64,000 nt of DNA from assembly GCA_004297215.1 (NCBI GenBank), contig SCUM01000001.1, forward strand, positions 219,642 through 283,641, given 5' to 3'. Below the pieces are notes generated by a model that saw nothing but the letters and a program-made list of their open reading frames with translations, had not been told where the DNA came from and ran no database searches. Position 1 is the stretch's first letter; the number at the start of each line of letters is the position of its first letter. Shown piece after piece: positions 12,036-63,839 of this stretch. Source of the stretch: Patescibacteria group bacterium. GTDB taxonomy: Bacteria > Patescibacteriota > Patescibacteriia > UBA9934 > GWF2-40-263. The translations under genes and the position numbers were made by a program.

Positions 12036-12067
12036 ACGTCTCGATGCCTCAGGAATCCCTGAAGCCT

Positions 12068-12796
12068 TCACGCCTGCGGCCTTCCCGCCTTTCCATGCCC
12101 GAACGAATAGTTGAACAGGTCGTGCTTGATCGGCCCGAGCGTGGCCAGGTGCAGCTCGGCCAGCATGAACTTGAGCGCGATGTTCACGCGTCCGTCGCGG
12201 TCGAGCCGGCGCACGGACACCGGCACCTTGAACGGCAGGAACCCGAACGAGCCCGCGCGCGCGCCACGGCGCGCGTAGTCGTGGTCTTCGCAGAACGTGA
12301 CGCTCTCGTCGAACCCGCCGATCGCGTCATGGAGCGACCTGCGTACGAGCAGGCAGAACCCGGGCGCATGCGGGAACGCCTTGCCGAGGGCGCGGACGTA
12401 GCGGTTATAGGCGCCGTGCATCACATGGTCGAGTGGGGCGTCGGAAAGGGGGAACACGTCGCATGTGGCGAGGTCGAGCTTGCGGTCTCGCATGCACGCG
12501 ACGGCCTGCTCGAGGAACGTCGGGTCATCAAGCTCCACGTCGGCGTCGAGGAACAGGATGAGCTCGGTGGATGCATGCGCGGCGCCGCGATTGCGTCCGG
12601 GACCTGGCATGCCGCCATCCACCACGCGCGCGCCAAACGAAACCGCGACCTCTCGCGTTCGATCGGTCGAAAACGCGTCCGCCACGATGATTTCGGCAGG
12701 CTGAAGCGTCTGGCGACGGATGGACGCGAGAAGGCGCGGCAGGTAAGTCTCTTCGTCTTTGGCGGGGATGACGATGGTCAGCACACTACCACCCAT
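12068..12796 (-). CDS. family 2 glycosyltransferase
   Basis: GT2 core ...ADA.S.D.T and a DAD motif. Start at the Met abutting the upstream TAG. The C-terminal 7 aa are encoded by a REP copy. Confidence 0.65.
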   Translation of the reverse strand: MGGSVLTIVIPAKDEETYLPRLLASIRRQTLQPAEIIVADAFSTDRTREVAVSFGARVVDGGMPGPGRNRGAAHASTELILFLDADVELDDPTFLEQAVACMRDRKLDLATCDVFPLSDAPLDHVMHGAYNRYVRALGKAFPHAPGFCLLVRRSLHDAIGGFDESVTFCEDHDYARRGARAGSFGFLPFKVPVSVRRLDRDGRVNIALKFMLAELHLATLGPIKHDLFNYSFGHGKAGRPQA

Positions 12797-14943: not shown

Positions 14944-14948
14944 AGTCC

Positions 14949-15167: not shown

Positions 15168-15175
15168 ATCCAAGG

Positions 15176-15196: not shown

Positions 15197-15197
15197 T

Positions 15198-15293
15198 ATG
15201 TCATCGGGCAGGCTCCGTCAAATCGCCGCCACCCTCGACCTGTTCCCGAACACGCCGCATGTAGAGGGCGCGTTCAAGCTGGTGAGGAAATAA
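15198..15293 (+). pseudogene. degenerate duplicate of the rlmD 3' end (encodes ..IAATLDLFPNTPHVEGAFKLVRK*)
   Basis: About 80% nucleotide identity to 14618-14695, and protein-level identity to the RlmD C-terminus. Confidence 0.6.
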
Positions 15294-15336
15294 AAAAACA
15301 GCTCCCGAGTCGGGAAGCCGTTGAGACAGTCGGACG

Positions 15337-17105: not shown

Positions 17106-17222
17106 GCGAAAACTTGAAACGTGAAAACTTGAAATCTTGAAAGGAAACGTGAAAACTTTTGAAAAGGCGAAACGGATAAACCGCTTCGTCTTTTTTCATC
17201 GTTTCAAAGTTTCAAGTTTTTC
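17106..17222. terminator. AT-rich intergenic palindromic repeat structure (GAAAACTTGAAA x3 direct + inverted copy) between convergent era and pilD; probable bidirectional terminator
   Basis: Direct and inverted repeats seen in sequence. Confidence 0.5.
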
Positions 17223-18506: not shown

Positions 18507-18527
18507 AGGGTCTGGATGAAGAATGTG

Positions 18528-18581
18528 GGATGAAGGATGTAGGATTTCTTTGCGTATCCTACATCCTACATCCTTCATCCT
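18528..18581. promoter_or_regulatory. 19-bp perfect inverted repeat GGGATGAAGGATGTAGGAT / ATCCTACATCCTTCATCC(C) with heptamer duplications, between response-regulator stop and pilin start
   Basis: Seen directly. It overlaps the last codons of the response regulator. Confidence 0.45.
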
Positions 18582-18969
18582 ACATTCTAACCCGTTCCTT
18601 TACGAGCCGCTCCACGTGCGCGCGCGTTTCCGTCGGCGTGACATGGCCCTTGAGCAGGTATCCGTCCGTGCCGCAGGCAAGCGTCTCGCGCACATGCTCG
18701 CGGTCCCCGCGCGCCGTGAGCGCGACCACGACGATGCCGGAGCTGGTCGGGTCTTCCTTGAGCGCGCGGACGAGCGCGAACGCCTCCGGCACCGTATCGG
18801 CGTCGAGGAGCATCGCGTCCGGAGCCTTCTTCGCGACGAGCTTGCGCGCCTCCTTCGCGTCCGGCGCGAGGCGCGCGACCCACCGGGCCGCCTCGAACCG
18901 CCGCGCGTAGATGCCGGCGAACGTCGCGTCCGGATCAACGATGAGCAGCTGGCGCTTGCGGGCAGGCAC
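18580..18969 (-). CDS. stand-alone response regulator receiver (CheY-like) protein
   Basis: 129 aa with LLIVDPD, MLLDAD, VVALTARGD and the GTDGYLLKG receiver motifs. Confidence 0.7.
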   Translation of the reverse strand: MPARKRQLLIVDPDATFAGIYARRFEAARWVARLAPDAKEARKLVAKKAPDAMLLDADTVPEAFALVRALKEDPTSSGIVVVALTARGDREHVRETLACGTDGYLLKGHVTPTETRAHVERLVKERVRM

Positions 18970-18970: not shown

Positions 18971-20083
18971 CTACTCGATGTCGCGCATCGCGAGCCCGAT
19001 CGACACGGCCATGCGCGGTCCGATCTCGTCGAGCACCGGACGCAGGTCCGCCGGGTAGGACACCCGCGCCCACGGGTCGCCGCGATAGACGTTCAGGTTG
19101 AGCGAGGCGGAGAGGAACTCGGGCACGCCCGGGAGATGCGCGCTGCCGCCGGTCACCACCACCTTTTCCACCTTCTTGAACTCCGTGAGCTCCATGCGCG
19201 CGTACAGCTGGAGCGCGTACTGGATCTCGTGGAGGATGGGTCCCATCGCAGCCTCCACCGCGGGCGGGAGCTTGCCTCCGGGCATGGCCGGCTGGTTCCC
19301 CAGGTCGGTCTTGATCTGTTCGGCCTCCGATTCGGGCACCGACATCTGCTCCATGATCTTCTTCGTGACGGACGATCCTCCCACGTTGATGGACCTGGTG
19401 AGGAACGGGATGCCTTTCTCGACCACGGTGATGTTCGTGCGCCCGAACCCGATGTCGAGGATGAGCACCGCGCTCTTGTCCTTGCCGATCAGGCTGCGGA
19501 TGAGGGCGAAGGACTCGGTATCGATCGCCTGGAGCTCGAGCTTGGCCGTGCGGAAGATCTCGATGTACTTCTGCACGAGCGTCTTGGCCGCGCCCGTGAC
19601 GAGCACGCGCACGTAGTCGGACGGCTTGCCAGCCGGAACCGTTTGTTCTTTTCCTGCGGCCTTCGTGCCTGAGGCCTTCCCCGCCTGCAGAGGATCGATG
19701 AACGTCGAATAGGTGATCATCTCCGAGATGGGAAGCGGGGTGAGCTTGGCCACCTGCGCGTCGATGAGCGGTTTCATCTCCTTCTCGTCCTTGCGCCGCG
19801 GCACCGCCACGATCGTCGAAAAGATCGAGGACAGCGGGAGCGCCGCCATGGCCTTGTTCGTCTTCACCCCGGCGCGCTTGCACAGTTCGGCAAGCGTCTC
19901 CCCGGCGCCCTTGACGTCCTCGAACGGCGAAACCACGGCCTCTCCCGGCTTGCGCTCGGAATAGCCGTAGGTCAGCAGCGTGGCGCGGCCCTTCTCGTTG
20001 GAAAGCTCCACCACCTTGACCCCCCCGGCGCCGACGTCCACGCCGAGGAAACTTTGCTTTTTCGGAGCGCCGAACAGGGCCAT
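18971..20083 (-). CDS. pilM: type IV pilus assembly protein PilM (actin-like ATPase)
   Basis: SFLGVDVGAGGVKVVELS N-terminus and the actin fold ~350 aa. Confidence 0.75.
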   Translation of the reverse strand: MALFGAPKKQSFLGVDVGAGGVKVVELSNEKGRATLLTYGYSERKPGEAVVSPFEDVKGAGETLAELCKRAGVKTNKAMAALPLSSIFSTIVAVPRRKDEKEMKPLIDAQVAKLTPLPISEMITYSTFIDPLQAGKASGTKAAGKEQTVPAGKPSDYVRVLVTGAAKTLVQKYIEIFRTAKLELQAIDTESFALIRSLIGKDKSAVLILDIGFGRTNITVVEKGIPFLTRSINVGGSSVTKKIMEQMSVPESEAEQIKTDLGNQPAMPGGKLPPAVEAAMGPILHEIQYALQLYARMELTEFKKVEKVVVTGGSAHLPGVPEFLSASLNLNVYRGDPWARVSYPADLRPVLDEIGPRMAVSIGLAMRDIE

Positions 20084-20107
20084 AACCGGCTCAGTATACC
20101 ACAACGG

Positions 20108-20509: not shown

Positions 20510-20523
20510 ACGGATAGGCAGGA

Positions 20524-20588
20524 AGGCCTCAGACGTGAAGGCGTTAAGGGTAATCCCTGAGGCCTTGTCCGCCTAAGGCCTTCACGCC
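20524..20588. repeat. full-length copy of dispersed palindromic REP/MITE-like element (L-arm units ..GTGAAGGCGTTAAGG / centre / R-arm CCTGAGGCCTTGTCCGCCTAAGGCCTTCACGCC)
   Basis: Shares the core GGCCTTGTCCGCCTGAGGCC with at least 12 other loci. It supplies the recJ stop codon. Confidence 0.8.
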
Positions 20589-22396
20589 TTCAAGTCAACG
20601 ATCCTCAACTGCAATTCCCGGTTCCCCTTCCACTCGTTCACGCCTAATTCGAAGGCGACGTCCAATGCCTGCCCCGGTTTCAGTCGCTTCACCCATTCCC
20701 CGAACCGGAACCCGATGAACTTGGCTATTCTCCCACCCTTGCCGCGCGCCGACAACCGGAGATGCTTCCCGTCCGCGCCGACCGTGTCAAAGGCGACGAC
20801 GGTCGCGCGCGAGGCGAACAATGGACGCGGGTTCTTCTCGCCGAACGGTTCGAGTTTCTGCACGGCCTCGAGCAACGCCCAATCCACGTCCTCGAGGTCG
20901 AGGTCGGCGTCCACGCGCAGGATCGGACGCAAGTCATCCGGCTTGATGTGCGCGTCGGCGTGCTTATGGAGCGATTCGACGAGGAACGCGAACCGTTCTT
21001 CCCCGCTCACCGAAAACCCGCACGCCTGCGGATGCCCGCCGAACCGATCGAGGTGTTCCTTGCACGCGTGAAGCGCCGCGGTCACGTCGAACCCGCCGAA
21101 GCTACGGCCGGAGCCGACATAACGCTCGCCATCTTTTCCGACCGCATACACCGGACGACAAAAATCGTTCACCAACTTGCCCGCGACGAGCCCGACGAGT
21201 CCCGGCGACCAGCCGGCGCTTGAGACGATGACGCACTTCGTGTCACCGGGATCGCCGACGAGACGCTTCGCCTCCTGATACATCGCCTCGGACGCCTTCT
21301 GACGATCTGCGTTCACTTCGTTGAGACGCATGGCAAGCTCGGCCGCTCGCGTCGGGTCTTCTTCGAGCAACAACTCGACCGCGCCACGTGCGTGCTCCAT
21401 GCGTCCAGCTGCATTCAGCCGCGGTCCGATCTGAAAACCTATGGTCACGGTGTCGAGCTCCCCGCCCTTGTTACCAGCCGCCTCGAGGAGTTTTTGGATG
21501 CCCACGCGCCGCGTCTTGTTGAGCACTTTGAGCCCATACGTCTCGAGCACGCGGTTCTCCCCCATGAGCGGCATCACGTCCGTGACGGTCGCGATGGCGA
21601 CGAGGTCGAGCAGCCATTTCTCATACCCTTCCGCGAAGCTCGCACCACGTTTAGATGCCTCATGGATAAGCGCGCTCGCCAACTTAAAGGCGACTCCTGT
21701 CCCGCACAGCGTCTTGTTCGGATACGTCTCCCCTGGCACTTGCGGGTGCAGCAGGATGGCCGCGTCCGGGAGCGCGTCGGGCACGGCATGGTGATCGCAC
21801 ACGATGGTGTCCACGCCCAGCTCGCGGCCCCGGTCGATCGCGTCCTTGTTGGAAATGCCGCAGTCCACGGTGATGACCAGCTTTGTCCCTTCGGCCGCAA
21901 GCTTTTCCATGGTCGCGACGGACAGGCCGTAGCCTTCCTTCTCGCGGTGAGGGATATAGGAGGAGAGCTGAAAGGCGGTAGAGGCCCGCAGGCCCGCAGG
22001 GTTTTCCCTGAAAGCCTTGTCCGCCTGGGGGCCTTGTCCGCCTAACGATCGACAGATGTCGCACAGCGTGGACATGAGCACGGTCGTGCCGCACACGCCG
22101 TCCGCGTCGTAGTCGCCGTGGACCGTGATGCGCTCGCCGGCCTCAAGCGCCGCGAAGACGCGCTCAACGGCCGCTTGCATGTTGCGAAACATCGAGGGCG
22201 AGTGCGCATCACGACTCCAATCCGGCCCCAGGAACACGTCCATTTCGGCTTGGGTCCTCACTCCCCTGTTCCACAGCAACCGTAATGCCACCGGATGCAC
22301 GTCCGGGAATGCCGCCCGAGCCTCGTCGGGCACGGCCGGATCGGTTATCCACACGCGCTCTTTCATGGCACGAGGATAGCACAAACGGACCCGCAC
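20582..22396 (-). CDS. recJ: single-stranded-DNA-specific exonuclease RecJ
   Basis: DHH motifs (HGDYDADG) and DHHA1. Contains a ~26-codon in-frame REP insertion (..GGQGPQADKAFRENPAGLRAS..). Confidence 0.88.
   Translation of the reverse strand: MRVRLCYPRAMKERVWITDPAVPDEARAAFPDVHPVALRLLWNRGVRTQAEMDVFLGPDWSRDAHSPSMFRNMQAAVERVFAALEAGERITVHGDYDADGVCGTTVLMSTLCDICRSLGGQGPQADKAFRENPAGLRASTAFQLSSYIPHREKEGYGLSVATMEKLAAEGTKLVITVDCGISNKDAIDRGRELGVDTIVCDHHAVPDALPDAAILLHPQVPGETYPNKTLCGTGVAFKLASALIHEASKRGASFAEGYEKWLLDLVAIATVTDVMPLMGENRVLETYGLKVLNKTRRVGIQKLLEAAGNKGGELDTVTIGFQIGPRLNAAGRMEHARGAVELLLEEDPTRAAELAMRLNEVNADRQKASEAMYQEAKRLVGDPGDTKCVIVSSAGWSPGLVGLVAGKLVNDFCRPVYAVGKDGERYVGSGRSFGGFDVTAALHACKEHLDRFGGHPQACGFSVSGEERFAFLVESLHKHADAHIKPDDLRPILRVDADLDLEDVDWALLEAVQKLEPFGEKNPRPLFASRATVVAFDTVGADGKHLRLSARGKGGRIAKFIGFRFGEWVKRLKPGQALDVAFELGVNEWKGNRELQLRIVDLKA
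21966..22043. repeat. REP-like element inserted in-frame inside recJ CDS
   Basis: GCCTTGTCCGCCTGGGGGCCTTGTCCGCCT plus an AGGCCCGCAGGCCCGCAGG arm. It interrupts the conserved DHH region. Confidence 0.75.
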
Positions 22397-26929: not shown

Positions 26930-26935
26930 ATGAGG

Positions 26936-27012
26936 ATAGGCGTTAAGGCTTCAGGCGTGAAGGCGTTAAGGGATTTCCTGAGGCCTTATCGCCTGAGGCC
27001 TTCATGCCTGAG
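26936..27012. repeat. full-length REP-like element (inverted arrays of ~15-bp units around GGATTTCC centre)
   Basis: GCGTTAAGGCTTCAGGCGTGAAGGCGTTAAGGGATTTCCTGAGGCCTTATCGCCTGAGGCCTTCATGCC. It encodes the last 7 aa and stop of the VKOR gene. Confidence 0.8.
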
Positions 27013-27432
27013 AAGAATGACGCAAAGGATGAGGATCGTCAGAATGGAGACTTGCGACGTCACGCACAGCAGGCACCAGCTCTTGAGCACGAACGCCTCG
27101 ATGCCCGAAAGGTAAAGCGCGAAGGCCGTCCCGCCGGCGGCGGCGGCGAGCAGGATGCGCGTGAGGTTCTTGTCCTGCATGTCGCGGCGCTTGAGCGCCG
27201 CGGCGGCGAGCAGGAACAGGTATCCGAGTACGCCGATGCCTGCCACGGGGATGCCGAACAGCACCGAATACGGCCCCTTGTTGACCACGTCGCAATTGAA
27301 CGTGTCGCCGATGGTGCAGAACGACCCCGACGAGAACCCGCGATTATGAAGGAAGGCGTAGGTCGATATCGAAAGGCCGATGGCGGAGAGGAGCATCACG
27401 AGGTGCAGGACGTGCTTGTCTTTCCCTTCCAT
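26986..27432 (-). CDS. vitamin K epoxide reductase (VKOR) family membrane protein
   Basis: Loop Cys pair (CTIGDTFNCD) and a CLLC active site in the TM helix. Confidence 0.75.
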   Translation of the reverse strand: MEGKDKHVLHLVMLLSAIGLSISTYAFLHNRGFSSGSFCTIGDTFNCDVVNKGPYSVLFGIPVAGIGVLGYLFLLAAAALKRRDMQDKNLTRILLAAAAGGTAFALYLSGIEAFVLKSWCLLCVTSQVSILTILILCVILLRHEGLRR

Positions 27433-32365: not shown

Positions 32366-33986
32366 ATGCCGCGCTGCCGCCGAACTCCTCGAGAAGGAGG
32401 TCCACGGCCTCGTCCGGATCCGTCGCTCGCGCATACGTGCCGTGCAGGTGCAGGCGCGCGCCGTACACGCGCTCGAGCACGGGATCGAGGATGAGGCGGT
32501 TGCGGACGGTATTGAGCGTGTCGGCGTGGAGCGAATAGGCGAAGCTGATCTCGATGCGGTCGCCATCCACCCTGGAGATCTCTCCGGTCCGCAGCACGAC
32601 GGGCAGCGACGCGTTTGCGGCCTTCACCAGCTGGAACACGTCCGGCCATTTGGCCTTGACCTGGTCGATGGAGAGGACGGGGACGGTGCCGAGAGCAGTG
32701 GGGGGAGAAGGCGGTAAGGCATCAGGCGTTGAAGGCCTCAGGACGGGCGAATCGGAGACCGAAATAGTCTGAACTTCTACGTTCCCTTCGGCCTTGTCGC
32801 CTACGGCCTTCACGCCTCCCTCTAGCCTCACCGAACCAACCCTCGTCCTCCTAAAATCCGCGCTTCCCTGCGGGCCTTGTCCGCCTGAGGCCTTGTCCGC
32901 CTCGCCGACGCACGACTCCACGATCGCGATCTCTAACGGGAGCGATGGAATGGATTCGCCTTTGGACTGACGCCGCGCCTTTTCAAAACGATCGATGAGC
33001 ACGGCGATCGCACGCGGATTCGTCTGCCCAAGCAATGCGGTAAGTCGTCCTGCGCTGTCATGGTCGAGGCGCGAGGGGAGCGCTTGCGCGTCGCCAAGGC
33101 TCGCGTGGAGCAGGGCGCGCAAGGCGTCCACCACGTCGGCGGCGAAATGCGGGAGATCGACCCCCTGCTCCGCCACCTTCCCGACGAGGGCCACGGCCGA
33201 GGCCGCGTCGCGCTTCACCACGTGTTCGACGAGTTCGGCGGCCGCCAGCGCGTTGGTCGCGGGCAAGACGAGCGAGGCCTCTTCCATCCCCACCTTCTTG
33301 CCGCCGATGGCGAACAGCTGGCCAAGAAGCGACTCGGCATCGCGCAATCCTCCTTCGGCATGACGCGCCACGGCCGCGAGCACGGCTTCCTCGACCTCCA
33401 CCCCTTCCTTCTTGGCGATGCCACGGAGCGTCTCGACGAGTTCCGCGACGGGGATGCGTCGGAAATCGAACCGTTCGCAGCGGCTGATCACCGTCGCGGG
33501 GACCTTGTGGATCTCGGTGGTGGCCAGGATGAACACGGCGTGCGCGGGCGGCTCCTCGAGCGTCTTTAAGAGCGCGTTGAACGAACCGGCGGAGAGCATG
33601 TGCACCTCGTCGATCACGTACACGCGGCGCTTGAGGCGGTTGGGCGCGAAACGCACGGCCTCGATCACCGTCTCGCGGATGTTGTCGACGCCCGTGTGCG
33701 TGGCCGCGTCGATCTCGAGCACGTCCATGGCCGAACCGGCGGCGACGGACTGGCAGGACTCGCACGCGTTACACGGCTCGCCCCCCTTCGACGCGAGACA
33801 ATTCACGGCCTTGGCCAGGATGCGGGCGATGGTGGTCTTCCCCACCCCGCGCGGACCCGTGAACAGATACGCATGCGCGACCTTGCCCGAAACAACCTCG
33901 TTTCTGAGCGTGGTCTTCACGTGGTCCTGGCCGACCACTTCGTCGAAGCAGGTCGGACGGTAGGTTCGATACAAGGCTTCGGACAT
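32364..33986 (-). CDS. dnaX: DNA polymerase III subunit gamma/tau
   Basis: GPRGVGKTT Walker A, a Cys4 Zn module and sensor motifs. Carries 3 in-frame REP-derived segments in the linker. Confidence 0.9.
   Translation of the reverse strand: MSEALYRTYRPTCFDEVVGQDHVKTTLRNEVVSGKVAHAYLFTGPRGVGKTTIARILAKAVNCLASKGGEPCNACESCQSVAAGSAMDVLEIDAATHTGVDNIRETVIEAVRFAPNRLKRRVYVIDEVHMLSAGSFNALLKTLEEPPAHAVFILATTEIHKVPATVISRCERFDFRRIPVAELVETLRGIAKKEGVEVEEAVLAAVARHAEGGLRDAESLLGQLFAIGGKKVGMEEASLVLPATNALAAAELVEHVVKRDAASAVALVGKVAEQGVDLPHFAADVVDALRALLHASLGDAQALPSRLDHDSAGRLTALLGQTNPRAIAVLIDRFEKARRQSKGESIPSLPLEIAIVESCVGEADKASGGQGPQGSADFRRTRVGSVRLEGGVKAVGDKAEGNVEVQTISVSDSPVLRPSTPDALPPSPPTALGTVPVLSIDQVKAKWPDVFQLVKAANASLPVVLRTGEISRVDGDRIEISFAYSLHADTLNTVRNRLILDPVLERVYGARLHLHGTYARATDPDEAVDLLLEEFGGSAA
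32708..32902. repeat. cluster of three REP-like arm copies inside dnaX CDS (32708-32742, 32789-32816, 32868-32902), all in-frame
   Basis: AGGCGTTGAAGGCCTCAGG; GGCCTTGTCGCCTACGGCCTTCACGCC; GGGCCTTGTCCGCCTGAGGCCTTGTCCGCC. Confidence 0.75.
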
Positions 33987-37731: not shown

Positions 37732-37767
37732 AAGGCGGACAAGGCCTCAGGCGTTGAAGGCCTTAGG
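37732..37767. repeat. REP-like L-arm copy (AAGGCGGACAAGGCCTCAGGCGTTGAAGGCCTTAGG); contains cysS stop codon
   Basis: Family core in reverse orientation. Confidence 0.75.
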
Positions 37768-41791: not shown

Positions 41792-41796
41792 GGATG

Positions 41797-41882
41797 AGGC
41801 GATAAGGCCTCAGGCAAGAAGGCCACAGATTGACGAATCCTTCAAATCCCTGAAGCCTTGTCCGCCTGAGGCCTTCACGCCT
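41797..41882. repeat. full-length REP-like element between sigma factor start and upstream gene stop
   Basis: GGCGATAAGGCCTCAGGCAAGAAGG..centre..CCTGAAGCCTTGTCCGCCTGAGGCCTTCACGCC. Confidence 0.8.
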
Positions 41883-42432
41883 CCCTACGCCGGATCGCGC
41901 CGAATGCCACCATCGCGACGATGGGGAGCAGGGCCCACACGCTCTTGCCCCCGTCGCTCGTGAAGACGGTGCGCGTGAGCGGCGACAGCCAGGGCGACGT
42001 GTCGGCCGGGAAGAAGGACAGGGTGACGCTGATGAGCAGGCCCGCGTGCAGGACGGAAAACGCGGCAACTTGCATGAAGCTCCCCTGCTCGGCCGACGCG
42101 CCGAACGCCTTGAGGAGCGCGGACTGCGACAGGAGGAAGAACAGCAGGATGAACGCGCCCAGGAACACGCTCACCTTGAGCGCGAAGGTGTCGTTCACGG
42201 AGATGCTCGCCTGGAACTCGCTGATGAACGGCACGTACTTCACCACGGCGAGCGCCATGTAGATCGCCACCATCATCACGAGGATGCGGTCGCGGCCGAG
42301 GCTGATGCCGTAGAGCAGCGAGGAAACGAGGAAGAACAGGATGATGAACACATCCCACGACGGCTGCAGCCAGTTGATGCTCGACAGGTACTGGGCGGCC
42401 TGGTGCGTGTCGATGACGACGGTCTGTAGCAT
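41875..42432 (-). CDS. hypothetical polytopic membrane protein
   Basis: 185-aa ORF with 5-6 hydrophobic helices. Confidence 0.5.
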   Translation of the reverse strand: MLQTVVIDTHQAAQYLSSINWLQPSWDVFIILFFLVSSLLYGISLGRDRILVMMVAIYMALAVVKYVPFISEFQASISVNDTFALKVSVFLGAFILLFFLLSQSALLKAFGASAEQGSFMQVAAFSVLHAGLLISVTLSFFPADTSPWLSPLTRTVFTSDGGKSVWALLPIVAMVAFGAIRRREA

Positions 42433-47031: not shown

Positions 47032-47445
47032 GTGACCGCTTTCGCCATCCTCTTCACCATGGCCGCGATCGGCATTGCCGAGACGAGCTACCTCATCCGC
47101 GCCCGCAAGGCGGCCGAACGGCCGGTGTGCGTGCTCGTGAACGGGTGTTCCAAGGTGCTTGAGAGCCGGTACAATTCCCTCTTCGGTGTGCACAACGACC
47201 TGCTGGGCCTCGCGTTCTACCTCGCGATGAGCGCCCTTACCGCGCTGCTGGTGATAGGCGCCGGTCCGGTGCCGTGGTGGGAACTGGGCGCCAAGCTCCT
47301 GGTGGGCGGCGGCCTGGTCATGTCTGCGGCGCTCACCTTCATCCAATGGCGCGTCCTCAAGGCCTGGTGCTTCTGGTGCCTCATGTCAGCCGGCACGGTG
47401 CTCGTCATGGCCCTTGTCCTCTTGCCTGCGGCCTTGTCCGCCTGA
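47032..47445 (+). CDS. VKOR-family membrane protein (second copy)
   Basis: Loop Cys pair VNGC and a CFWC active site. The last 7 aa plus stop come from a REP copy. Confidence 0.7.
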   Translation: MTAFAILFTMAAIGIAETSYLIRARKAAERPVCVLVNGCSKVLESRYNSLFGVHNDLLGLAFYLAMSALTALLVIGAGPVPWWELGAKLLVGGGLVMSAALTFIQWRVLKAWCFWCLMSAGTVLVMALVLLPAALSA

Positions 47446-47458
47446 GGCCTTCAATGCC
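47426..47458. repeat. REP-like R-arm copy (CTGCGGCCTTGTCCGCCTGAGGCCTTCAATGCC)
   Basis: Family core. It provides the VKOR stop codon. Confidence 0.75.
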
Positions 47459-47849
47459 TATCCCTATGTCAAAACCTTCCGCCTACCACATCATGCGCGT
47501 CGCAATGGGGATCACCTTCGCCTGGATCGGCATCCTCATCTTCAAAGAGCCGGAATCTTGGGGCGGGTTCATCCAGCCTTGGGCCGCGAACCTCCTCCCC
47601 GTCCCGCTCGAACTCGCCATGATCGGCACGGCCGTGCTCGACCTCGCTATCGGCTTGCTCCTGCTCGTGGACGCGTTCGTCTGGATCGCCGCGACCGTGG
47701 CCGTTGCGCATCTCGCCATCGTCCTTACCGTGTCCGGCATCGATTCCGTCACCGTGCGCGACATCGGGCTTCTCGGCGCCGCCATCATGCTGTTCTGGGA
47801 AGACGCGCCCGAGACGCTCAAGGCGAAATTCCGCCGATTCCAGCACTAG
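47454..47849 (+). CDS. DoxX-family membrane protein
   Basis: 131 aa with multiple TMs. Start at the internal Met immediately after the REP copy. Confidence 0.5.
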   Translation: MPIPMSKPSAYHIMRVAMGITFAWIGILIFKEPESWGGFIQPWAANLLPVPLELAMIGTAVLDLAIGLLLLVDAFVWIAATVAVAHLAIVLTVSGIDSVTVRDIGLLGAAIMLFWEDAPETLKAKFRRFQH

Positions 47850-49032: not shown

Positions 49033-51591
49033 TCATTTCAGCAACCGCTTGAGGTAATGGCCGGTGGCGCTCCTCGCGTTGCGCGCGATGTCCTCGGGCG
49101 TGCCCGTGGCCACGACCTCCCCGCCCTTGTCGCCGCCCTCGGGGCCGAGGTCGATGATCCAGTCCGCGGTCTTGATCACGTCGAGGTTGTGCTCGATGAC
49201 GACCACGGTGTTCCCCTTCTTGACCAGCGTATGGAGGACCTCCAGCAGCTTCCGCACGTCCGCGAAGTGCAGTCCTGTCGTCGGCTCGTCGAGCAAGTAC
49301 AGCGTGCGGGTGGTCGAGCGCTTGCACAATTCGCTCGACAGCTTCACGCGCTGCGCTTCCCCGCCCGACAAGGTCGTCGCGCTTTGGCCGATCTTGAGGT
49401 AGCCGAGGCCGACTTCGACCAGGGTGTCGAACTTGTCCGCGATGGGCGAGATGTCCTTGAAGAACTCCGCGCCTTCCTCGACCGTCATCTCGAGGACATC
49501 CCAGATGTTCTTCTCCTTGAATTGCACCTCGAGCGTCTCGCGGTCGAACCGCTTGCCGCGGCACACCTCGCACGCCACGTGCACCGTGGGGAGGAAATGC
49601 ATCTCGATCGCGATCGTGCCGTGGCCCTCGCAGTTCTCGCACCGGCCGCCCGGCGTGTTGAAGCTGAAGCGCCCCGGCTTGTACCCGCGGAAGCGCGCCT
49701 CCTCGGTGGCCGCGTACAGGTCGCGGATGGGGCCCCAGGCTCCGGTGTAGGTGGCCGGGTTGCTGCGCGGCGTGCGGCCAATCGGCCCCTGGTCGATGAG
49801 GATCGCCTTGTCGATGTATTCGATGCCGAGTACGGCCTTGTGCTTGCCGGGCGTATGCGCCGTGCCGTAGAGGCGCCGCGCGATCTCCTTGTACATCGTC
49901 TCGTACGCGAGCGTGGATTTGCCCGAGCCGGATACCCCCGTGATGCACACGAAGCGACGCAACGGCAGGTCCACGTCCACGTTCTTCAAGTTGTTCTCTG
50001 AGGCCCCGCGTATCTTGATGACGTCCTTGGCCGGGCTGCGGCGCTCCTCGGGGACCGGCACCATCTCGTCGCCGCGCAGATAGGCGGCCGTGAGCGACTT
50101 CTTGTCCTCGAAGATCTTGGGCGTGGGCCCGGCGGCCACCACTTCCCCGCCGTGCACGCCCGCTCCCGGCCCGATCTCGATCATGTAGTCGCTGGCGCGG
50201 ATCGTGTCCTCGTCATGTTCGACGACAAGCACGGTGTTGCCCGCGTCGCGCAGTTGCAGCAGCGTCTCGATGAGGCGGTCGTTGTCGCGCTGGTGAAGTC
50301 CGATCGTGGGCTCGTCGAGCACGTACAAGGCGCCCACGAGGCGCGAACCGACCTGGCTCGCGAGACGGATGCGCTGCGCCTCGCCGCCCGAGAGCGTTCC
50401 GGCCATGCGGTTCAGCGTAAGGTAATGCAGCCCCACGTCGAGCATGAAGGTGAGGCGCGAAAGCACCTCCTTCATGGCCGCGCCCGAGATCTCCTTCTCG
50501 CGCTCCGACAGCAGAAGCGTCGACAGGTACGAATGCGCTTGGTCGATCGAGAGCTTCGTGAGGTCGACAATCGACATCCCTGCGGCCTTCCTGCCTGGGG
50601 CCTTGTCCGCCTTGCCCCCCGGCAGCCAGACGTGCAGCGCCTCCTTTCTCAGTCGGTCGCCCGTGCACAACCCGCACAGCTCCTCGCTGAACAGCTCGGC
50701 CGTGCCCAGGCCGTGGCACTCGGGGCAGGCGCCGTAGGGCGAGTTGAACGAGAACAGGCGCGGCTCGATTTCGGGGAACGAGAACCCGTCGTCCGGGCAG
50801 GAGAACTTGGCGGAAAGCAATTGTTCGCGCCCGTCCGGGAAGATCGCCGTCACCACGTCCTCGCCGCGCTCCACGGCCTGTACCAGCGCGTCAGCCAGGC
50901 GTTGGCGCGCGGCCTTCTCGTCCTTGGCGAACAGCGAGAGCGCGATCGTGTCCACCACCACTTCGATCGTGTGCTGCTGGTAGCGCGACAGCTTGATCTG
51001 CTTGCTCAAGTCGTATTCCTTGCCGTCGATGCGCACCTTGGCGAACCCGGAGTTGTAGAGGTCGTACAGCAGCTGGTAGTACTCCCCCTTGCGCCCGCGG
51101 ACCATCGGGGCCAGAATCTTAATCGATCCCTTCCCCCCTTCGGTCCCTTCGGCCACTCCGGCCCCTTTCAGCACCACGTCCACCATCTCTTCATTGGTCA
51201 GCTTCCGGATCTCCTTCTTGCAGGTGACGCAATGCGGCACGCCGATGCGCGCGTACAGCACGCGCAGGTAGTCGTAGATTTCCGTGATCGTGGCCACGGT
51301 CGATCGCGGGTTGCTGGAGTGCGCCTTCTGGTCGATGGAAATGGCCGGCGACAGCCCTTCGATCTCGTCCACGTCCGGCTTTTCCATCTGCCCCAGGAAC
51401 TGCCGGGCGTACGCGGACAGGGACTCGACGTACCGGCGCTGCCCCTCGGCGAAGATGGTGTCGAACGCGAGCGAAGACTTCCCCGAGCCCGAAAGCCCCG
51501 TGATGGTCACGAGCTTGTTGCGCGGGATGTCGAGCGAGATGTTCTTGAGGTTATGCTCGCGCGCGCCCTTGATGCGGATGGAATCGTTCAT
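49033..51591 (-). CDS. uvrA: excinuclease ABC subunit A
   Basis: Two ABC modules (GLSGSGKSS / GVSGSGKST) and zinc fingers. Contains an in-frame REP segment (..[14 protein letters not shown]..). Confidence 0.92.
50578..50614. repeat. REP-like R-arm copy inserted in-frame in uvrA
   Basis: CTGCGGCCTTCCTGCCTGGGGCCTTGTCCGCCTT. Confidence 0.75.
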
Positions 51592-51597
51592 ACGGAT

Positions 51598-51668
51598 AGG
51601 CGGTAAGGCTTCAGGCGTGAAGGCCTTAGGATTTCCTGAGGCCTTGTCCGCCTGAGGCCTTCTTGCCT
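51598..51668. repeat. full-length REP-like element in uvrA-uvrB junction; encodes the last ~12 aa of UvrB
   Basis: AGGCGGTAAGGCTTCAGGCGTGAAGGCCTTAGGATTTCCTGAGGCCTTGTCCGCCTGAGGCCTTCTTGCC. Confidence 0.8.
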
Positions 51669-55397: not shown

Positions 55398-57671
55398 TTA
55401 TAATTTCGCTTTCCGAATTCGCAACGAGTTTAGCACCACCGAGACCGATGAGAAAGCCATGGCGGCGGAGGCGATGATGGGGTTGAGCAGTCCGAGGGCC
55501 GCGAGCGGAATGGCCGCCACGTTGTAGAAGAACGCCCAGAACAGGTTCTGCCGGATGCCGGCGTAGGTGCGCCGCGACAGGCGGATGGCGTCAACGACCT
55601 TTTCCGGTCCGCCTCCGACCAGGACGATCTGTCCGGCCTCGATCGCCACGTCCGTGCCGCTCCCCACCGCGATGCCGAGGTCAGCCTGGGTGAGCGCGGG
55701 CGCGTCGTTGATCCCGTCGCCCACGAACGCCACCTTCTTGCCCGCGGCCTGCGCCTCCTTCACGATCTCGAGCTTGCGCGCCGGGAGCACTTCCGCCTCG
55801 ATGCGGTCGATCCCGAGCTCCCTCCCGACCGCTTCGGCCGTGGCGCGATGGTCGCCGGTGATCATGACGACCTCGACGCCCATGGTCCGCAACTCCTTCA
55901 CGGCTTCCGCTGCCGTCGCTTTCGCCTTGTCCGCGACCGAGATCGCGGCAACGGCCTTCTTGTCGCGCGCGAGCACCATCACGGTCTGCGCCTTCGCCTG
56001 CATCGCGACGACGGCCTCGCGCACGGCGGACACGTCCACGCCCTCTTCTTCCATCAGCCGGAGATTGCCGAGCAGGACCGGTCCCCCGTCGACGGAACCC
56101 GACACGCCGCGTCCGGCCACGGCCGAGAACCCGGACACCTTGGCCGGCGCGACGCCCTTCTCCTTCGCGTACGCGACGATCGCCTTGGCAAGCGGATGCT
56201 CGGAGTTCGCCTCCAAACCCGCCGCGATCGCAAGAACCTCAGGCTCCTCAAGCTCCTTCGTCACCTCGATACCCGTCACCACCGGCCTCCCTTCCGTGAG
56301 CGTCCCGGTCTTGTCGAACATCACGACATGGAACGCCTTGCTGCGCTCGAGCGCCTCCCCGCTCTTGATGAGGATACCCATGCCCGCGCCGCGACCCGTC
56401 CCGACCATGATGGCGGTCGGCGTCGCGAGCCCGAGCGCGCACGGGCAGGCGATGATGAGCACGGCGACGGCCGGCACGAACGAGGCCGTGACGTCGCCCG
56501 TCGCGACGAACCAGGCGACGAAGGTGACGGCGGCCGCGCCGATGACGACCGGCACGAACACGCCGGAGATGCGGTCCACCAGCTTCTGGATCGGCGCCTT
56601 CTTCATCTGCGCGTCAGCCACGAGCCGCACGATCTGCGCGAGCACGGTGTCCCCCGCGGCCTTCTTCACCTCGACGGTCAAGGCTCCCTGCTGGTTCACG
56701 GTCGCGCCGAACACGAGGTCGCCGGCCTTCTTCGACACGGGCAGCGATTCGCCCGTAAGCATGGACTCGTCGAGCGACGAGGCGCCCTCGAGGATGACCC
56801 CGTCCACCGGCACTTTCTCGCCAGGCTTCACGAGCACGACGTCGCCCACTCGCAATCCGTCGACTGCGACTTCTTCCGTTTCCATCCCTGAGGCCTTGTC
56901 CGCCTGAGGCCTTCCCGCCTTAAACCGATGCGCCGTCTTCGCCCCAAGCTCCACCAGCTTCGCGATCGCCGCGCTCGCGCGCCCCTTGCTCTTGGCCTCG
57001 AAGTAGCGGCCGAGCAGGATGAAGGCGGTGATGATCGCCGCGACCTCGAAATAGAGGTGACCGTCGACGAACAGCTGCCACCAGCTGAATAGGAGCGCCG
57101 TAAGCGTTCCCATGGAAATGAGCGCATCCATGCCGAACGAGAGCCGGATCGCCTGCTTTACGGCCACGCGGTGGAACTCCATGCCCGGCCCAAGCACCAC
57201 GATCGTCGCGAGGATCGCCTGCACCCACACCGACGGGCTGATGCCCACGACGTCGCCCGGGATCTCGAGCCCCGACATGACGAGCACGAGCGGGATCGCG
57301 GCGAGCCCGAGTGCGAGCGCCGCCTTTCGTCCGGCCTTCCTCATGTCCGCGCCGTGCGCCATATGCCCGCCCGCCGAAGCCTCGGCGGAGGCGGGGTCTT
57401 CCCCGCTCATCACGGTGCCGTCCGGCATGACATGGCTGCCCGCCGACGCCTTGGCAGAGGCGGAACCGGCGACCGAATACCCTTGGTCCGTGACGGCCTT
57501 ATGCAGCGTCGTCTCGTCCGTTTTCTCGGGATCGTATTCGACCGCCGCCTTCTCAAGCGCGTAATTGACGCTCGCCGAAGATACGCCGGGCGTCTTCGCC
57601 AGGCTGCTCTCGATCTTCACCGCGCAGCTCGCGCAATGCATCCCCCTGATGCCGAAAGAGGTCTTTTCCAT
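55398..57671 (-). CDS. copA: copper-translocating P1B-type ATPase with N-terminal HMA domain
   Basis: GMHCASC, CPC, DKTGTLT and GDGINDAP motifs. Contains an in-frame REP segment ([12 protein letters not shown]). Confidence 0.92.
56887..56922. repeat. REP-like R-arm copy inserted in-frame in copA
   Basis: CCTGAGGCCTTGTCCGCCTGAGGCCTTCCCGCCTT. Confidence 0.75.
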
Positions 57672-62817: not shown

Positions 62818-62826
62818 ATGATGAGA

Positions 62827-62931
62827 GGCGATAAGGCCGCAGGCGATAAGGCCGCAGGCGATAAGGCCGCAGGCGATAAGGCCGCAGGCGATAAGGCCGC
62901 AGGCGATAAGGCCGCAGGCGATAAGGCCTAA
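62827..62931. repeat. 7 contiguous 15-bp tandem units GGCGATAAGGCCGCA (last unit variant) abutting nadM start codon
   Basis: Counted directly: 6 perfect units plus 1 variant. The unit equals the REP L-arm subunit. Confidence 0.9.
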
Positions 62932-62969
62932 GCGCTGAAGCCTTGTCCGCCTGAGGCCTAAGGCCTGAC
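62932..62969. repeat. REP-like R-arm copy (GCGCTGAAGCCTTGTCCGCCTGAGGCCTAAGGCC); supplies stop codon of DUF362 gene
   Basis: Family core. Confidence 0.8.
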
Positions 62970-63839
62970 AAAAAATTTTATGGACCTCTTCCAGTCCGTC
63001 TCGCCGACCACGTCGATCCGCGTTTCATCCAACACACCGTACCCCCGCTGCGACGCCAGGGCAAGATAGCGGATGCCCGAGGGATCGATGCCCATGAGCC
63101 GGCAACCGATCGAATCGACCGCGACCGCGTCCGTGCCGGCGAGGGCGAGCTTCATCTCGACCGGGTCGCCATGCGTGGGTCCGTCCCCTTCCATGGCGAG
63201 GAAGGCGTCCACGACGCACAGGTCGGGCTTGGTCTGGCGCAGGAGCTCCGCGATCGTCTCGTGGTGGGCGTCGTTCCCCTGCGCGTGCAGGTACGGAGCG
63301 CGCGCCCAGATCCGGCCCGAAAGCCCGATGCTGGAAGCCGCCACCCACGTGCCGATGGTCCAATTCTTCACGCACAAGGAGACGCCGACGTCGCGATGGG
63401 TCTTCATGACCGTCAGGTCGACCGTAAAATCGGATTCCGCGACCGTTTTCGCGATTCCCATGGGCCCGAGCGATCCGTCGCGCTTCACGTACGTGCCCGG
63501 CACGGTCGCGTCGTCGTTCAGGTCAAACAGCCGGACGTCCGGGTATTCGCCAGGCAGGTTCTCGTACCCGAAATGGCGGAACGCGGCCTTGGTGCCGTGA
63601 TACGAGGCGTCGGCGATGACGACGGGCGCGGCCGTCTTCGAACGGACGACGTCGAGCACGGCCCGTACCGCGTCCGCATGCGTCGAGGCGAGCTGGTTCA
63701 AGTGGTGCACCAGGTTTGGCTTGATGAGTACCGAACGGGCCGACACGAGCCCCGCGAGGACATCGGGAGGCAACGCCTCGATGGCTCGTCGGACGTTTTC
63801 CCTGCGGTTTTCCCCACGGATGACAGATACCTGTACCAT
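62958..63839 (-). CDS. DUF362-domain protein
   Basis: VLIKPNLV motif. Start at the internal Met. Confidence 0.5.

What the first reader, a model, noticed from the sequence alone, without database searches (positions are those of the whole stretch)
20524..20588. Dense family of REP/MITE-like palindromic elements built from ~15-bp subunits (core GGCCTTGTCCGCCTGAGGCC)
There are at least 13 copies in 64 kb. Their positions are 12046-12091, 20524-20588, 21966-22043, 26936-27012, 32708-32902 (three arms), 37732-37767, 41797-41882, 47426-47458, 50578-50614, 51598-51668, 56887-56922 and 62827-62969. Full copies are inverted arrays of units: a left arm ~AGGCG(T/A)TAAGG-C(T/C)TCAGGCGTGAAGG, a centre GGATTTCC, and a right arm CCTGAGGCCTTGTCCG-CCTGAGGCCTTCNNGCC. 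These could form long hairpins. Partial single-arm copies also occur. This is far denser than typical REP families and has no obvious transposase partner in the window.
Basis: seen in the sequence. Interest (0 to 1): 0.8.

Follow-up and report, generated by a model that had tools for sequence, protein, structure and literature searches.

The report
Hairpin repeats invading CPR bacterial genes
A tiny-genome "candidate phyla radiation" bacterium carries a family of hairpin-forming DNA repeats that has recently spread between genes and, in frame, inside essential genes such as RecJ, UvrA, DnaX and CopA, much as the palindromic elements of Rickettsia do.

Summary
The repeat family is real. There are 13 loci (21 arms, 981 nt, 1.5% of the window) and chance expects about none. 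The window is a chromosome segment of a Patescibacteria (Uhrbacteria-like) bacterium.

**Structure.** Each arm follows a strict grammar: (unit A AGGC-G-NN(N)-A, then unit B AGGCC-NN) twice, then AGG. Two arms form hairpins of -37 to -56 kcal/mol (z -6 to -7.6).

The family is not purely extragenic.
- Five loci are in-frame insertions in PilM, RecJ, DnaX, UvrA and CopA.
- Six lie at gene junctions, carry the upstream stop codon, and end 0-8 nt before the next ATG.
- Two are single arms at gene ends.

**Comparison with two close relatives.**
- Several copies are absent at orthologous sites. One is a clean 76-nt insertion into an ATGA stop/start overlap, with no target duplication.
- Three copies are shared. 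In two of them, units have been swapped.

**Ruled out or not found.** The hairpins are not terminators: none has a T-run. No transposase lies in the window. The sister genome has a distant RAYT-like gene, but it is flanked by a different hairpin.

**Best reading.** This is a selfish, non-autonomous hairpin repeat that behaves like RPE and REP elements and is kept only where harmless. How it moves is unknown. I rate it a new variant of a known kind, of moderate to high interest.

The parts
12046..12094 (-). Junction copy, a truncated palindrome (full 5' arm, centre GGGATTCC, short 3' arm). It contains the last codons and the TGA stop (12068-12070) of a GT2 glycosyltransferase. The next gene (PTAC) starts at 12035.
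19653..19686 (-). Single arm in frame inside the PilM-like gene (18971-20104), encoding AGKASGTKAAG. The sister genome L016 has the orthologous arm (33/34 identical). Relative L013 has a (CAGTTCC)n array at the same point.
20512..20587 (-). Full palindrome, an exact 76-nt insertion between RecJ and RNase H. It supplies RecJ's last codon and TGA stop (20582-20584). The RNase H ATG is at 20509. The site is empty (ATGA overlap) in both L016 and L013. No target-site duplication.
21966..22043 (-). Full but degraded palindrome, in frame inside RecJ (26 codons: GGQGPQADKAFRENPAGLRASTAFQL), between the DHH helix and the IPHREKEGYG motif. Orthologous copy in L016 with different 5'-arm units. Predicted to be a disordered loop.
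26934..27014 (-). Full palindrome at the junction of VKOR-family gene 1 (stop TAA 26986-26988, inside the 5' arm) and an 81-aa gene (ATG 26929). L016 has only a degenerate 3'-arm-like sequence here, translated as the VKOR tail.
32708..32902 (-). Composite of three arms (32867-32902, 32785-32821, 32708-32742) plus spacers. The whole stretch is open in frame inside the DnaX (gamma/tau) linker after domain III, about 65 codons.
37732..37767 (-). Single arm (CCT-rich in the sense strand) overlapping the CysRS stop (TAA 37763-37765), just upstream of a TGnTACAAT promoter-like box. At this junction L016 has a RAYT-like gene instead.
41795..41886 (-). Full palindrome with a long centre. It contains the TGA stop (41875-41877) of a 185-aa gene and ends directly before the sigma-factor ATG (41791). 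Orthologous copy in L001/L016, where the 3' arm is conserved and the 5' arm units differ.
47422..47462 (+). Single arm between two plus-strand genes. It holds the VKOR-2 stop (TGA 47443-47445) and ends ...GCCTATCC, 3 nt before the next ATG (47466). It is absent in L001, where the two genes overlap by 4 nt.
50578..50614 (-). Single arm in frame inside UvrA. It adds 12 residues relative to solved UvrA structures. It is absent from the closest relatives (P0002, P0003). A recognisably related arm sits at the same codon in more distant Uhrbacteria (L014, L015).
51594..51668 (-). Full palindrome between UvrB (stop TAA 51626-51628, in the centre) and UvrA (ATG 51591). In L001 UvrB and UvrA overlap (ATGA) and there is no palindrome.
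56887..56922 (-). Single arm in frame inside the CopA-type P-type ATPase ([12 protein letters not shown]), in the actuator region. Absent in L001.
62822..62972 (-). Palindrome whose start-proximal arm has expanded to seven tandem A-B double units (AGGCGATAAGGCCGC x6.9). It holds the DUF362 gene stop (TAG 62958-62960). The NMNAT-like gene starts at 62817.

Best explanation
The family is a lineage-specific, non-autonomous, hairpin-forming dispersed repeat in an Uhrbacteria-like (Patescibacteria/CPR) chromosome. It behaves like a selfish element.

**Shown**
- Each element is built from ~34-nt arms with a fixed grammar, (A-B)x2-AGG. Two inverted arms make a long, regularly mismatched hairpin.
- Copies have been added in this lineage at new sites, without target-site duplication.
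- Existing copies exchange units with one another, which indicates gene conversion or concerted evolution.

**Inferred**
- Only harmless insertions survive. There are three such places:
  - Tight gene junctions. The 5' arm brings a stop codon for the upstream gene, and the ...GCCTATCC end leaves the downstream ATG intact 0-8 nt away.
  - Disordered surface loops, linkers or tails of proteins. Here stop-free AGG-rich arms are read through as Lys/Ala/Gly-rich peptides.
  - Gene ends.
- At junctions the upstream ribosome terminates inside the hairpin and melts it. Translation of the downstream gene therefore probably stays coupled, as it was in the ancestral ATGA overlap.

**Not shown**
- How copies move. 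My best guess is single-stranded hairpin DNA handled in trans by a Y1/HUH (RAYT-type) enzyme, or microhomology-guided template switching, followed by gene conversion between copies.
For: **Dispersal and definition**
- Identical 19-36-nt stretches occur at 13 loci with unrelated flanks.
- The profile census is sharply bimodal.
- Almost all arms share the fixed two-double-unit architecture.

**Recent gain**
- The RecJ/RNase H junction carries an exact 76-nt insert. The site is empty in two relatives.
- Copies at the UvrB/UvrA junction, inside UvrA, inside CopA and at 47426 are absent in L001, which is about 85% identical in nucleotide sequence.
- Arm density is 0.38 per kb in the window against 0-0.19 per kb in relatives.

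**In-frame insertions**
- UvrA has 12 extra residues and RecJ about 26, relative to solved structures.
- Uhrbacteria protein alignments agree.
- NCBI annotated the insert-bearing RecJ, UvrA and DnaX each as a single protein (P0121, P0001, P0241).
- In the RecJ AlphaFold model (pLDDT 84), the only segment below 50 is the insert.
- The sister genome's exact-core copy is in frame in RadA.

**Unit swapping in old copies**
- RecJ-internal and 41797 keep one arm but have different units in the other arm compared with L016/L001.

**Structure**
- Hairpins fold at -37 to -56 kcal/mol, z about -6 to -7.6.

**Selection filter**
- Intragenic arms use almost only stop-free A units: 1/12 carry a stop triplet against 5/11 in junction arms (Fisher p = 0.07).

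**Precedent**
- RPEs insert in frame at high frequency (PMC10969869).
Against: - No mobilising enzyme was identified. The window has none, and the rest of the 842-kb source genome could not be read.
- The RAYT-like gene of the sister genome is flanked by a different hairpin, CCCGTCACCWGGTGACGGGG. It is therefore not demonstrably the partner.
- Only one filled/empty site has sharp boundaries. At other empty sites the relative shows weak similarity to the element: CGGACAA in UvrA, the UvrB tail, and the VKOR1 tail. Some 'gains' could therefore be losses or in-situ conversions.
- The UvrA site is occupied in more distant Uhrbacteria but empty in the closest ones. The polarity there is ambiguous.
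- The constant position of junction copies relative to stop and start could reflect function rather than mere tolerance.
Confidence: 0.7

Rival explanations
1. The junction hairpins are primarily functional cis-acting RNA elements. They could be intercistronic stem-loops that couple translation of the downstream gene to termination of the upstream one, or that stabilise or process polycistronic mRNA, in a bacterium that largely lacks Shine-Dalgarno sequences. Under this view the intragenic copies are by-products.
For: - All six junction copies have the same layout. The stop codon lies inside the 5' arm or centre, and the hairpin base lies 0-8 nt before the next ATG, often through the shared end GCCTATCC.
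- The hairpins are very stable.
- Most starts in the window lack a recognisable SD. A Parcubacteria subgroup is reported to lack the anti-SD motif (PMC9297842).
- The four assessable new junction copies replaced overlapping or near-abutting gene pairs (a 4-nt overlap in three, a 2-nt gap in the fourth).
Against: - The same junctions work without any hairpin in relatives that are 75-88% identical.
- The identical sequence also occurs as half copies and inside ORFs.
- No compensatory changes are seen. The variable unit positions of the two arms are systematically unpaired.
- Tight junctions are common in these genomes, so 4 out of 4 is weak evidence.
Confidence: 0.2
2. The arrays arise locally and independently at each site. 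Replication slippage of short AGG-containing units, plus fold-back template switching, would create them, with sequence convergence and no dispersal of an element.
For: - The window and its relatives hold many other short-unit arrays of different sequence at junctions and inside genes.
- One arm is expanded to seven tandem double units.
- Different lineages carry different arrays at the same protein sites.
Against: - Identical 20-36-nt stretches occur at many unrelated loci.
- Arm length is constant at two double units, not a spread of lengths.
- A complete 76-nt palindrome appears in one step at a site that is empty in two relatives.
Confidence: 0.05
3. They are ordinary intrinsic transcription terminators conserved at gene ends.
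For: They are GC-rich hairpins located after stop codons.
Against: - None is followed by a T-run on either strand.
- None is called by the terminator scan, which does find canonical hairpin-plus-T-run sites elsewhere in the window.
- They sit inside operons 0-8 nt before the next start codon.
- Five lie inside ORFs.
- They are absent at orthologous junctions in relatives.
Confidence: 0.02
4. They are assembly or binning artefacts of a metagenome-assembled genome.
For: The source is a MAG. Palindromes can be created by mis-assembly.
Against: - Every copy has unique flanks and preserves reading frames.
- Three copies (PilM, RecJ, 41797) recur at orthologous sites in contigs from other samples (ENA), and the RadA arm recurs in an NCBI genome record and a JGI metagenome contig.
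Confidence: 0.01

Closest known systems
Rickettsia palindromic elements (RPEs)
   Same: - Dispersed palindromic repeats in a small genome.
- Often inserted in frame into unrelated housekeeping genes as well as between genes.
- The encoded peptide sits where the protein fold tolerates it.
- No associated transposase is known (PMC10969869; the remaining points are from my own knowledge).
   Different: - No sequence relationship, and a different phylum (Patescibacteria versus Alphaproteobacteria).
- These elements are shorter: 34-nt arms and 70-90-nt full copies, against about 100-150 bp for RPEs.
- They are built from a modular A/B unit grammar.
- They often occur as half elements.
- They are read in several frames rather than encoding one conserved peptide.
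REP / REPIN elements mobilised by RAYTs (Y1 HUH transposases)
   Same: - Short GC-rich hairpin repeats at gene ends, numerous per genome.
- Inserted without target-site duplication.
- A distant RAYT-like gene exists in the sister genome, flanked by its own hairpins.
   Different: - A single arm is not itself a palindrome.
- 5 of 13 loci are intragenic.
- No conserved RAYT recognition tetranucleotide was identified.
- The RAYT-like gene found is flanked by a different repeat, and none lies in the window.
Bacterial MITEs (Correia, ERIC, Nezha, etc.)
   Same: - Small non-autonomous inverted-repeat elements.
- They can fuse to ORFs and supply stop or start signals.
- They show insertion polymorphism between relatives.
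   Different: - No target-site duplication at the clean site.
- No parent IS with matching terminal inverted repeats.
- The whole element is the inverted repeat.
Mycobacterial interspersed repetitive units (MIRUs)
   Same: From my own knowledge, MIRUs lie between genes of operons and overlap the stop of the upstream gene and the start of the downstream gene. They are thought to preserve translational coupling.
   Different: - MIRUs are direct tandem repeats that carry a bridging small ORF.
- Here the small ORF that starts at the GTGA overlap ends in the loop and does not reach the next ATG.
- These elements are hairpins.
Selfish GC-rich palindromic clusters of organelle genomes (e.g. Volvox mitochondrial/plastid palindromes)
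   Same: Short hairpin repeats that proliferate in a compact genome and can invade coding regions (PMC2670323, abstract listed).
   Different: Organellar rather than bacterial, with unrelated sequences and no modular A/B grammar.

Membership tests
REP/REPIN-RAYT system | The basic repeat unit is itself a short imperfect palindrome (20-40 nt hairpin) | tested here: not met
   Arms are direct (A-B)x2 arrays with no internal self-complementarity. Only two inverted arms together make a hairpin.
REP/REPIN-RAYT system | Extragenic location | tested here: not met
   5 of 13 loci are in frame inside ORFs. All six junction copies overlap the upstream gene's last codons and stop.
REP/REPIN-RAYT system | A cognate RAYT gene in the genome, flanked by the same repeats | tested here: inconclusive
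   - No RAYT gene lies in the 64-kb window.
- The rest of the source genome could not be read.
- The sister genome has a Y1_Tnp gene (Pfam 28.7 bits against a cut-off of 23; NCBIfam REP_Tyr_transpos 29 bits against a cut-off of 80). It is flanked by a different hairpin.
REP/REPIN-RAYT system | Insertion without target-site duplication | tested here: met
   The RecJ/RNase H site: TTGAAG|GTATGAA is empty in L013 and L016, and the window has a 76-nt insert with no duplicated flank.
MITE | Target-site duplication flanking the element | tested here: not met
   At the same clean site the apparent GCGTGAA/GTATGAA similarity is a regular unit A of the element, not a duplication.
MITE | Terminal inverted repeats shared with an autonomous IS in the same or related genomes | not testable with these tools
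   No IS lies in the window or in the about 100 kb of relatives fetched. The full source genome is unavailable.
Rickettsia palindromic elements | Sequence membership in one of the RPE families | not tested
   Not compared directly. The host phylum and base composition differ, so only the behaviour is compared.
Rickettsia palindromic elements | Palindromic repeat inserted in frame into unrelated conserved genes at structurally tolerated positions | tested here: met
   In-frame copies in UvrA, RecJ, DnaX, CopA and PilM, and in RadA in the relative. The RecJ insert is the only low-confidence loop in the model.
Intrinsic (Rho-independent) terminator | GC-rich hairpin immediately followed by a U/T run | tested here: not met
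   No T-runs. None is called by the scan, which finds canonical terminators elsewhere.
MIRU-like intercistronic repeat | A small ORF within the repeat whose start and stop overlap those of the flanking genes | tested here: not met
   At 20512-20587 the ORF starting at the GTGA overlap (VKALGGQGLRDYP*) ends in the loop, about 35 nt before the next ATG.

The most novel reading that the evidence does not exclude
Uhrbacteria (and perhaps other Shine-Dalgarno-poor CPR bacteria) may have an active, clade-wide process that writes short modular hairpins into gene junctions and protein loops.

- At least three unrelated mini-palindrome families and several heptamer arrays occupy the same 'hot' sites in different lineages.
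- Units are exchanged between copies.
- The driver could be a dedicated Y1/HUH enzyme or a template-switching mechanism not yet described.
- The junction hairpins may have been co-opted as translation-coupling devices that replace ATGA overlaps.
Probability: 0.15. Interest if true: 0.8.

Novelty: new variant of a known kind. Interest (0 to 1): 0.6.

Why it matters
CPR/Patescibacteria have extremely small, gene-dense genomes and are usually thought to be poor in repeats. Here a hairpin repeat family takes up 1.5% of a 64-kb stretch. It splits overlapping gene pairs and adds peptides to core DNA-repair and replication proteins (UvrA, RecJ, DnaX, and RadA in the relative).

If confirmed genome-wide, it would matter in several ways:
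- It would be a second clear case, after Rickettsia RPEs, of selfish palindromes reshaping essential proteins in a reduced genome.
- It would be a source of the lineage-specific protein insertions seen in CPR.
- It is a practical caveat for gene calling and for alignment-based phylogeny of these organisms.
- It offers a natural experiment on how translation of downstream cistrons copes with very stable hairpins when Shine-Dalgarno sequences are rare.

Tried and rejected
1. **Finding the rest of the source genome.**
   - Scans of genome contigs and metagenome contigs with the 19-nt core returned only one true relative copy (the RadA arm, L004 and L011) plus isolated chance hits in GC-rich Proteobacteria and unrelated contigs.
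   - Exact-protein look-ups for the window's LepA and UvrA found no record.
   - A genome-wide census and a RAYT search in the source genome were therefore impossible.
2. **Phage origin.** The long co-directional gene array first suggested a phage. Housekeeping genes rule this out.
3. **AAGG units as Shine-Dalgarno sites.** Rejected, because most genes here have no SD. In full copies the AGG-rich arm lies 40-60 nt from the ATG and is paired.
4. **Target-site duplication or a GTATGAA target.**
   - The GCGTGAA at the insert's left end is a normal unit A.
   - CGT-ATG is a common start context in this genome.
5. **MIRU-like bridging ORF.** Not present.
6. **Terminator function.** Rejected. The terminator upstream of LepA, which shares the GGATTTCC loop, is unrelated.
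7. **Sister genome's RAYT-like gene as the partner.**
   - Its flanking hairpin is absent from the window.
   - tblastn against the window finds nothing.
   - There is no PDB sequence match.
8. **Known RNA families.** Rfam and tRNA scans found only two tRNAs in the window.
9. **Covariation analysis.** Not attempted. The paired positions are nearly invariant and the variable positions are systematically unpaired, so it would be uninformative.

Full report
**1. The observation**

- The 20-nt core has 9 matches at <=3 mismatches, against 0.01 expected from dinucleotide-preserving shuffles.
- A periodic AGGC(N3-4) pattern hits 17 arms, against 0.16 in Markov shuffles.
- An nhmmer profile built from the arms recovers the same places at E <= 1e-4. 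Nothing else scores better than E = 2.8.

In total there are 13 loci and 981 nt. That is 1.5% of the window, or one locus per 4.9 kb.

**2. Where the window comes from**

The window is a bacterial chromosome of about 63% G+C. It carries housekeeping genes:
- LepA, UvrA/B/C, RecJ, DnaX, CysRS and AlaRS;
- NrdDG, a ribosomal-protein/RpoA block, and MraZ/RsmH;
- PilM/PilD and a CopA-type ATPase.

Its UvrA, RecJ and DnaX are 100% identical to NCBI proteins of a 'Patescibacteria group bacterium' on an 842,311-bp contig. All close homologues are Candidatus Uhrbacteria.

**3. Anatomy**

Written in the AGG-rich orientation, every arm has the same grammar.
- Unit A is AGGC-G-NN(N)-A, 8-9 nt. The commonest forms are AGGCGGACA, AGGCGATA and AGGCGTGA.
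- Unit B is AGGCC-NN, 7 nt. The commonest forms are AGGCCTC and AGGCCGC.
- A and B alternate, almost always exactly twice, followed by AGG.
- The exception is 62826-62928, where the double unit is repeated 6.9 times.

A full element is an AGG-rich arm, a short centre (GGGATTTCC-like) and a CCT-rich arm. In several copies it ends ...GCCTATCC.

Full copies fold into hairpins of -37 to -56 kcal/mol, z -5.9 to -7.6, with 0/200 shuffles as stable. The conserved AGGCC/GGCCT parts pair. The variable middle of unit A is not complementary between the two arms of a copy, so it gives regular internal loops.

**4. Position relative to genes (the main new finding)**

Six-frame views and checked coordinates show three classes.

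(a) Six junction copies: 12046, 20512-20587, 26934, 41795, 51594 and 62822.
- They lie between co-directional genes.
- The upstream gene's last codons and stop codon are inside the 5' arm or centre.
- The base of the hairpin is 0-8 nt before the next ATG.

(b) Two single arms at gene ends.
- 37732 overlaps the CysRS stop.
- 47422 overlaps the VKOR-2 stop.

(c) Five copies inside ORFs, in frame and without stops.

| Gene | Coordinates | Form | Encoded peptide |
|---|---|---|---|
| PilM | 19653 | single arm | AGKASGTKAAG |
| RecJ | 21966-22043 | full palindrome, 26 codons | GGQGPQADKAFRENPAGLRASTAFQL |
| DnaX linker | 32708-32902 | three arms, about 65 codons | not listed here |
| UvrA | 50578 | single arm | [12 protein letters not shown] |
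| CopA | 56887 | single arm | [12 protein letters not shown] |

Evidence that these are true insertions:
- Against solved structures, UvrA has exactly 12 extra residues at this point.
- RecJ has about 26 extra residues between two aligned blocks.
- Alignments of Uhrbacteria homologues agree.
- An AlphaFold2 model of RecJ is confident overall (pLDDT 84, pTM 0.80). Its only segment below pLDDT 50 is residues 111-130, inside the insert.
- Intragenic arms use almost only stop-free variants of unit A: 1/12 carry a stop triplet, against 5/11 in junction arms (p = 0.07).

**5. Comparison with relatives**

Two close relatives were fetched.
- L001 and L016 are contigs of one sister genome. They share an identical element, and P0242 names the genome as Ca. 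Uhrbacteria RIFCSPHIGHO2_01_FULL_63_20-like. Nucleotide identity is 73-92% for most aligned segments. Together they cover window 19.5-62.3 kb.
- L013 is a slightly more distant relative covering 16.3-24.0 kb.

| Site in window | Sister genome (L001/L016) | L013 |
|---|---|---|
| RecJ/RNase H junction, 76-nt palindrome | Empty, ...AAA\|GTATGAA (ATGA overlap) | Empty, ...AAG\|GTATGAA (ATGA overlap) |
| UvrB/UvrA junction | No palindrome; genes overlap (ATGA) | not covered |
| VKOR-2/next gene | No arm; genes overlap by 4 nt | not covered |
| UvrA internal | Absent | not covered |
| CopA internal | Absent | not covered |
| PilM internal | Same arm, 33/34 identical | (CAGTTCC)n array instead |
| RecJ internal | Shared; one arm conserved, other arm has different units | Different mini-palindrome |
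| 41795 junction | Shared; one arm conserved, other arm has different units | not covered |

- The RecJ/RNase H insert is exact and has no target-site duplication.
- In the two shared copies with swapped units, the window carries the locally dominant CAGGCGGACAAGGCC in the changed arm. This indicates exchange between copies.
- Arm density is 0.38 per kb in the window, against 0-0.19 per kb in relatives.
- The exact 19-nt core is otherwise almost absent from 185,579 species genomes and from the JGI metagenomes. The one real extra hit is in the sister genome. It is again an in-frame insert, in RadA.

Polarity is not always clear.
- The UvrA site is empty in the closest relatives. In more distant Uhrbacteria it holds a recognisably related arm at the same codon: L014 has (GGGAAGGC)x3...GCATGGT|ATG, and L015 has a degenerate form.
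- At some 'empty' sites the relative has weak similarity to the element.

**6. What it is not**
- It is not a terminator. No T-runs follow the hairpins. None is called by a scan that finds canonical terminators elsewhere.
- It is not a known RNA family.
- It is not an assembly artefact. Orthologous copies occur in contigs from other samples and collections.
- It is not a set of ribosome-binding sites. Most starts here have no Shine-Dalgarno sequence. This fits the reported lack of the anti-SD motif in a Parcubacteria subgroup (PMC9297842).

**7. Transposase partner**

None of about 48 window proteins has a transposase, integrase or Y1 domain.

In the sister genome the junction after CysRS holds a 233-aa gene, exactly where the window has copy 37732-37767.
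- It has a Pfam Y1_Tnp hit above threshold (28.7 against 23 bits).
- It has an HFHLLL (HUH) motif.
- Its only NCBIfam hit is 'REP-associated tyrosine transposase', at 29 bits, below the 80-bit cut-off.
- It is flanked by four perfect hairpins, CCCGTCACC(W)GGTGACGGGG.

That is a classic REP-RAYT layout, but with a different repeat. Neither that hairpin nor the gene is in the window. A Y1-type enzyme acting in trans is therefore possible but not shown.

**8. Mechanism**

Shown:
- a dispersed, sharply defined family;
- at least one clean recent insertion without target duplication;
- expansion in this lineage;
- unit exchange in old copies;
- translation-compatible intragenic copies at disordered or variable protein sites.

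Inferred:
- The elements are selfish or neutral, and selection keeps only harmless insertions.
- Junction copies are tolerated because they bring a stop codon and leave the downstream start context intact.
- Because the upstream ribosome terminates inside the hairpin, it should melt the hairpin and keep downstream translation coupled, as the ancestral ATGA overlap did.

Unknown: the mobilisation chemistry. Candidates are a Y1/HUH enzyme acting in trans on single-stranded hairpins, or microhomology-guided template switching and gene conversion. On the second idea, the RNase H and UvrA start regions share 15 identical nucleotides, GCCTATCCGTATGAA, across the element/flank boundary.

**9. Comparison with known systems**
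- In behaviour the closest match is the Rickettsia palindromic elements, which insert in frame into unrelated genes (PMC10969869).
- In form and lack of target duplication they resemble REP/REPIN elements. However, they fail the 'unit is a palindrome' and 'extragenic' criteria, and a cognate RAYT is unproven.
- MITE criteria (target duplication, parent IS) are not met or not testable.
- Full-text searches found no paper combining Patescibacteria or Parcubacteria with such repeats.

I therefore rate it a new variant of a known kind.

**10. Wider pattern**

The same genomes hold other mini-palindromes and short-unit arrays at the same kinds of sites. Details are listed under things noticed in passing. 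This suggests a general propensity of this clade, which is the basis of the more novel reading given separately.

Noticed in passing
window 37619-37652, 57365-57398, 57434-57467: A second, unrelated mini-palindrome family (CCGCCTCCGCYGARGCTWCGGCGGGC, about -20 to -28 kcal/mol) lies in frame in a 193-aa protein and twice in CopA. It encodes (E/D)PASAEA(S/T)AG-like peptides. One CopA copy is a clean 30-nt gain relative to L001.
   Followed up: partly
L013 about 1950-1990 (RecJ) and L001 about 5100-5140 (CopA): Relatives carry a third mini-palindrome type (C5-7TT...AAG5-7) in frame. It sits at the same protein sites where the window has other repeats. Different repeat families therefore occupy the same 'hot' positions.
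   Followed up: partly
window 18508-18593: An intercistronic hairpin (-46 kcal/mol, z -7.5) is built from different heptamers (GGATGAA/GGATGTA against ATCCTAC). It has the same layout as the AGGC family: stop codon at its 5' edge and the next ATG 9 nt after it. It is absent in L013.
   Followed up: partly
window 17108-17219: Inverted arrays of 7-8-nt units (GAAAACTT/GAAACGT against GTTTCAAA) lie between the convergent Era and PilD genes. They are present in L013 with a different copy number.
   Followed up: partly
window 51135-51167, 52362-52397, 46036-46065, 45434-45460, 56237-56257, 57959-57995: Short tandem arrays lie inside UvrA (CCCCTTCGG x3.7), UvrB (CCCTTTCCG x4) and UvrC (GGGAGTT x4.3). 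A dispersed 9-nt array, (GAGGAGCTT)n, lies in UvrC, CopA and a DsbD-like gene.
   Followed up: no
window 53706-53731 and 13280-13314; L014 4440-4480: G-rich AGG-phased heptamer/nonamer arrays lie just upstream of first cistrons (UvrB, TrmA). A similar array lies upstream of UvrB in L014. Their role (leader, promoter-proximal element or G-quadruplex-like) is unknown.
   Followed up: no
L016 5401-6173: A RAYT-like Y1 transposase gene (233 aa, HFHLLL motif) is flanked by four perfect hairpins, CCCGTCACC(W)GGTGACGGGG. It is inserted between CysRS and the next gene in the sister genome and is absent from the window.
   Followed up: yes
window, start regions of about 50 genes; e.g. 37700-37725: Most start codons lack a Shine-Dalgarno sequence; contexts such as CCTnnT-ATG and CGT-ATG dominate. 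Some genes have a TGnTACAAT-like -10 box only about 10 nt before the ATG, which suggests leaderless or near-leaderless mRNAs.
   Followed up: partly
window 49033-51591 (UvrA): UvrA is about 850 aa, here and in all Uhrbacteria homologues. It lacks about 90-110 residues (Geobacillus UvrA about 330-417) relative to solved class I UvrA structures.
   Followed up: no
window 1-4000 and 14000-16000: These segments have lower G+C (54-56% against about 64%). Their ORFs have no Pfam hits (30-581, 1332-2042, 2104-2769, 15337-16161). They may be foreign DNA.
   Followed up: no
L014 1788-1949: A large imperfect hairpin (65-nt arms, 82% complementary) of unrelated sequence lies at a gene junction upstream of the NMNAT-like gene. 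This is roughly where the window has the expanded copy at 62822-62972.
   Followed up: no
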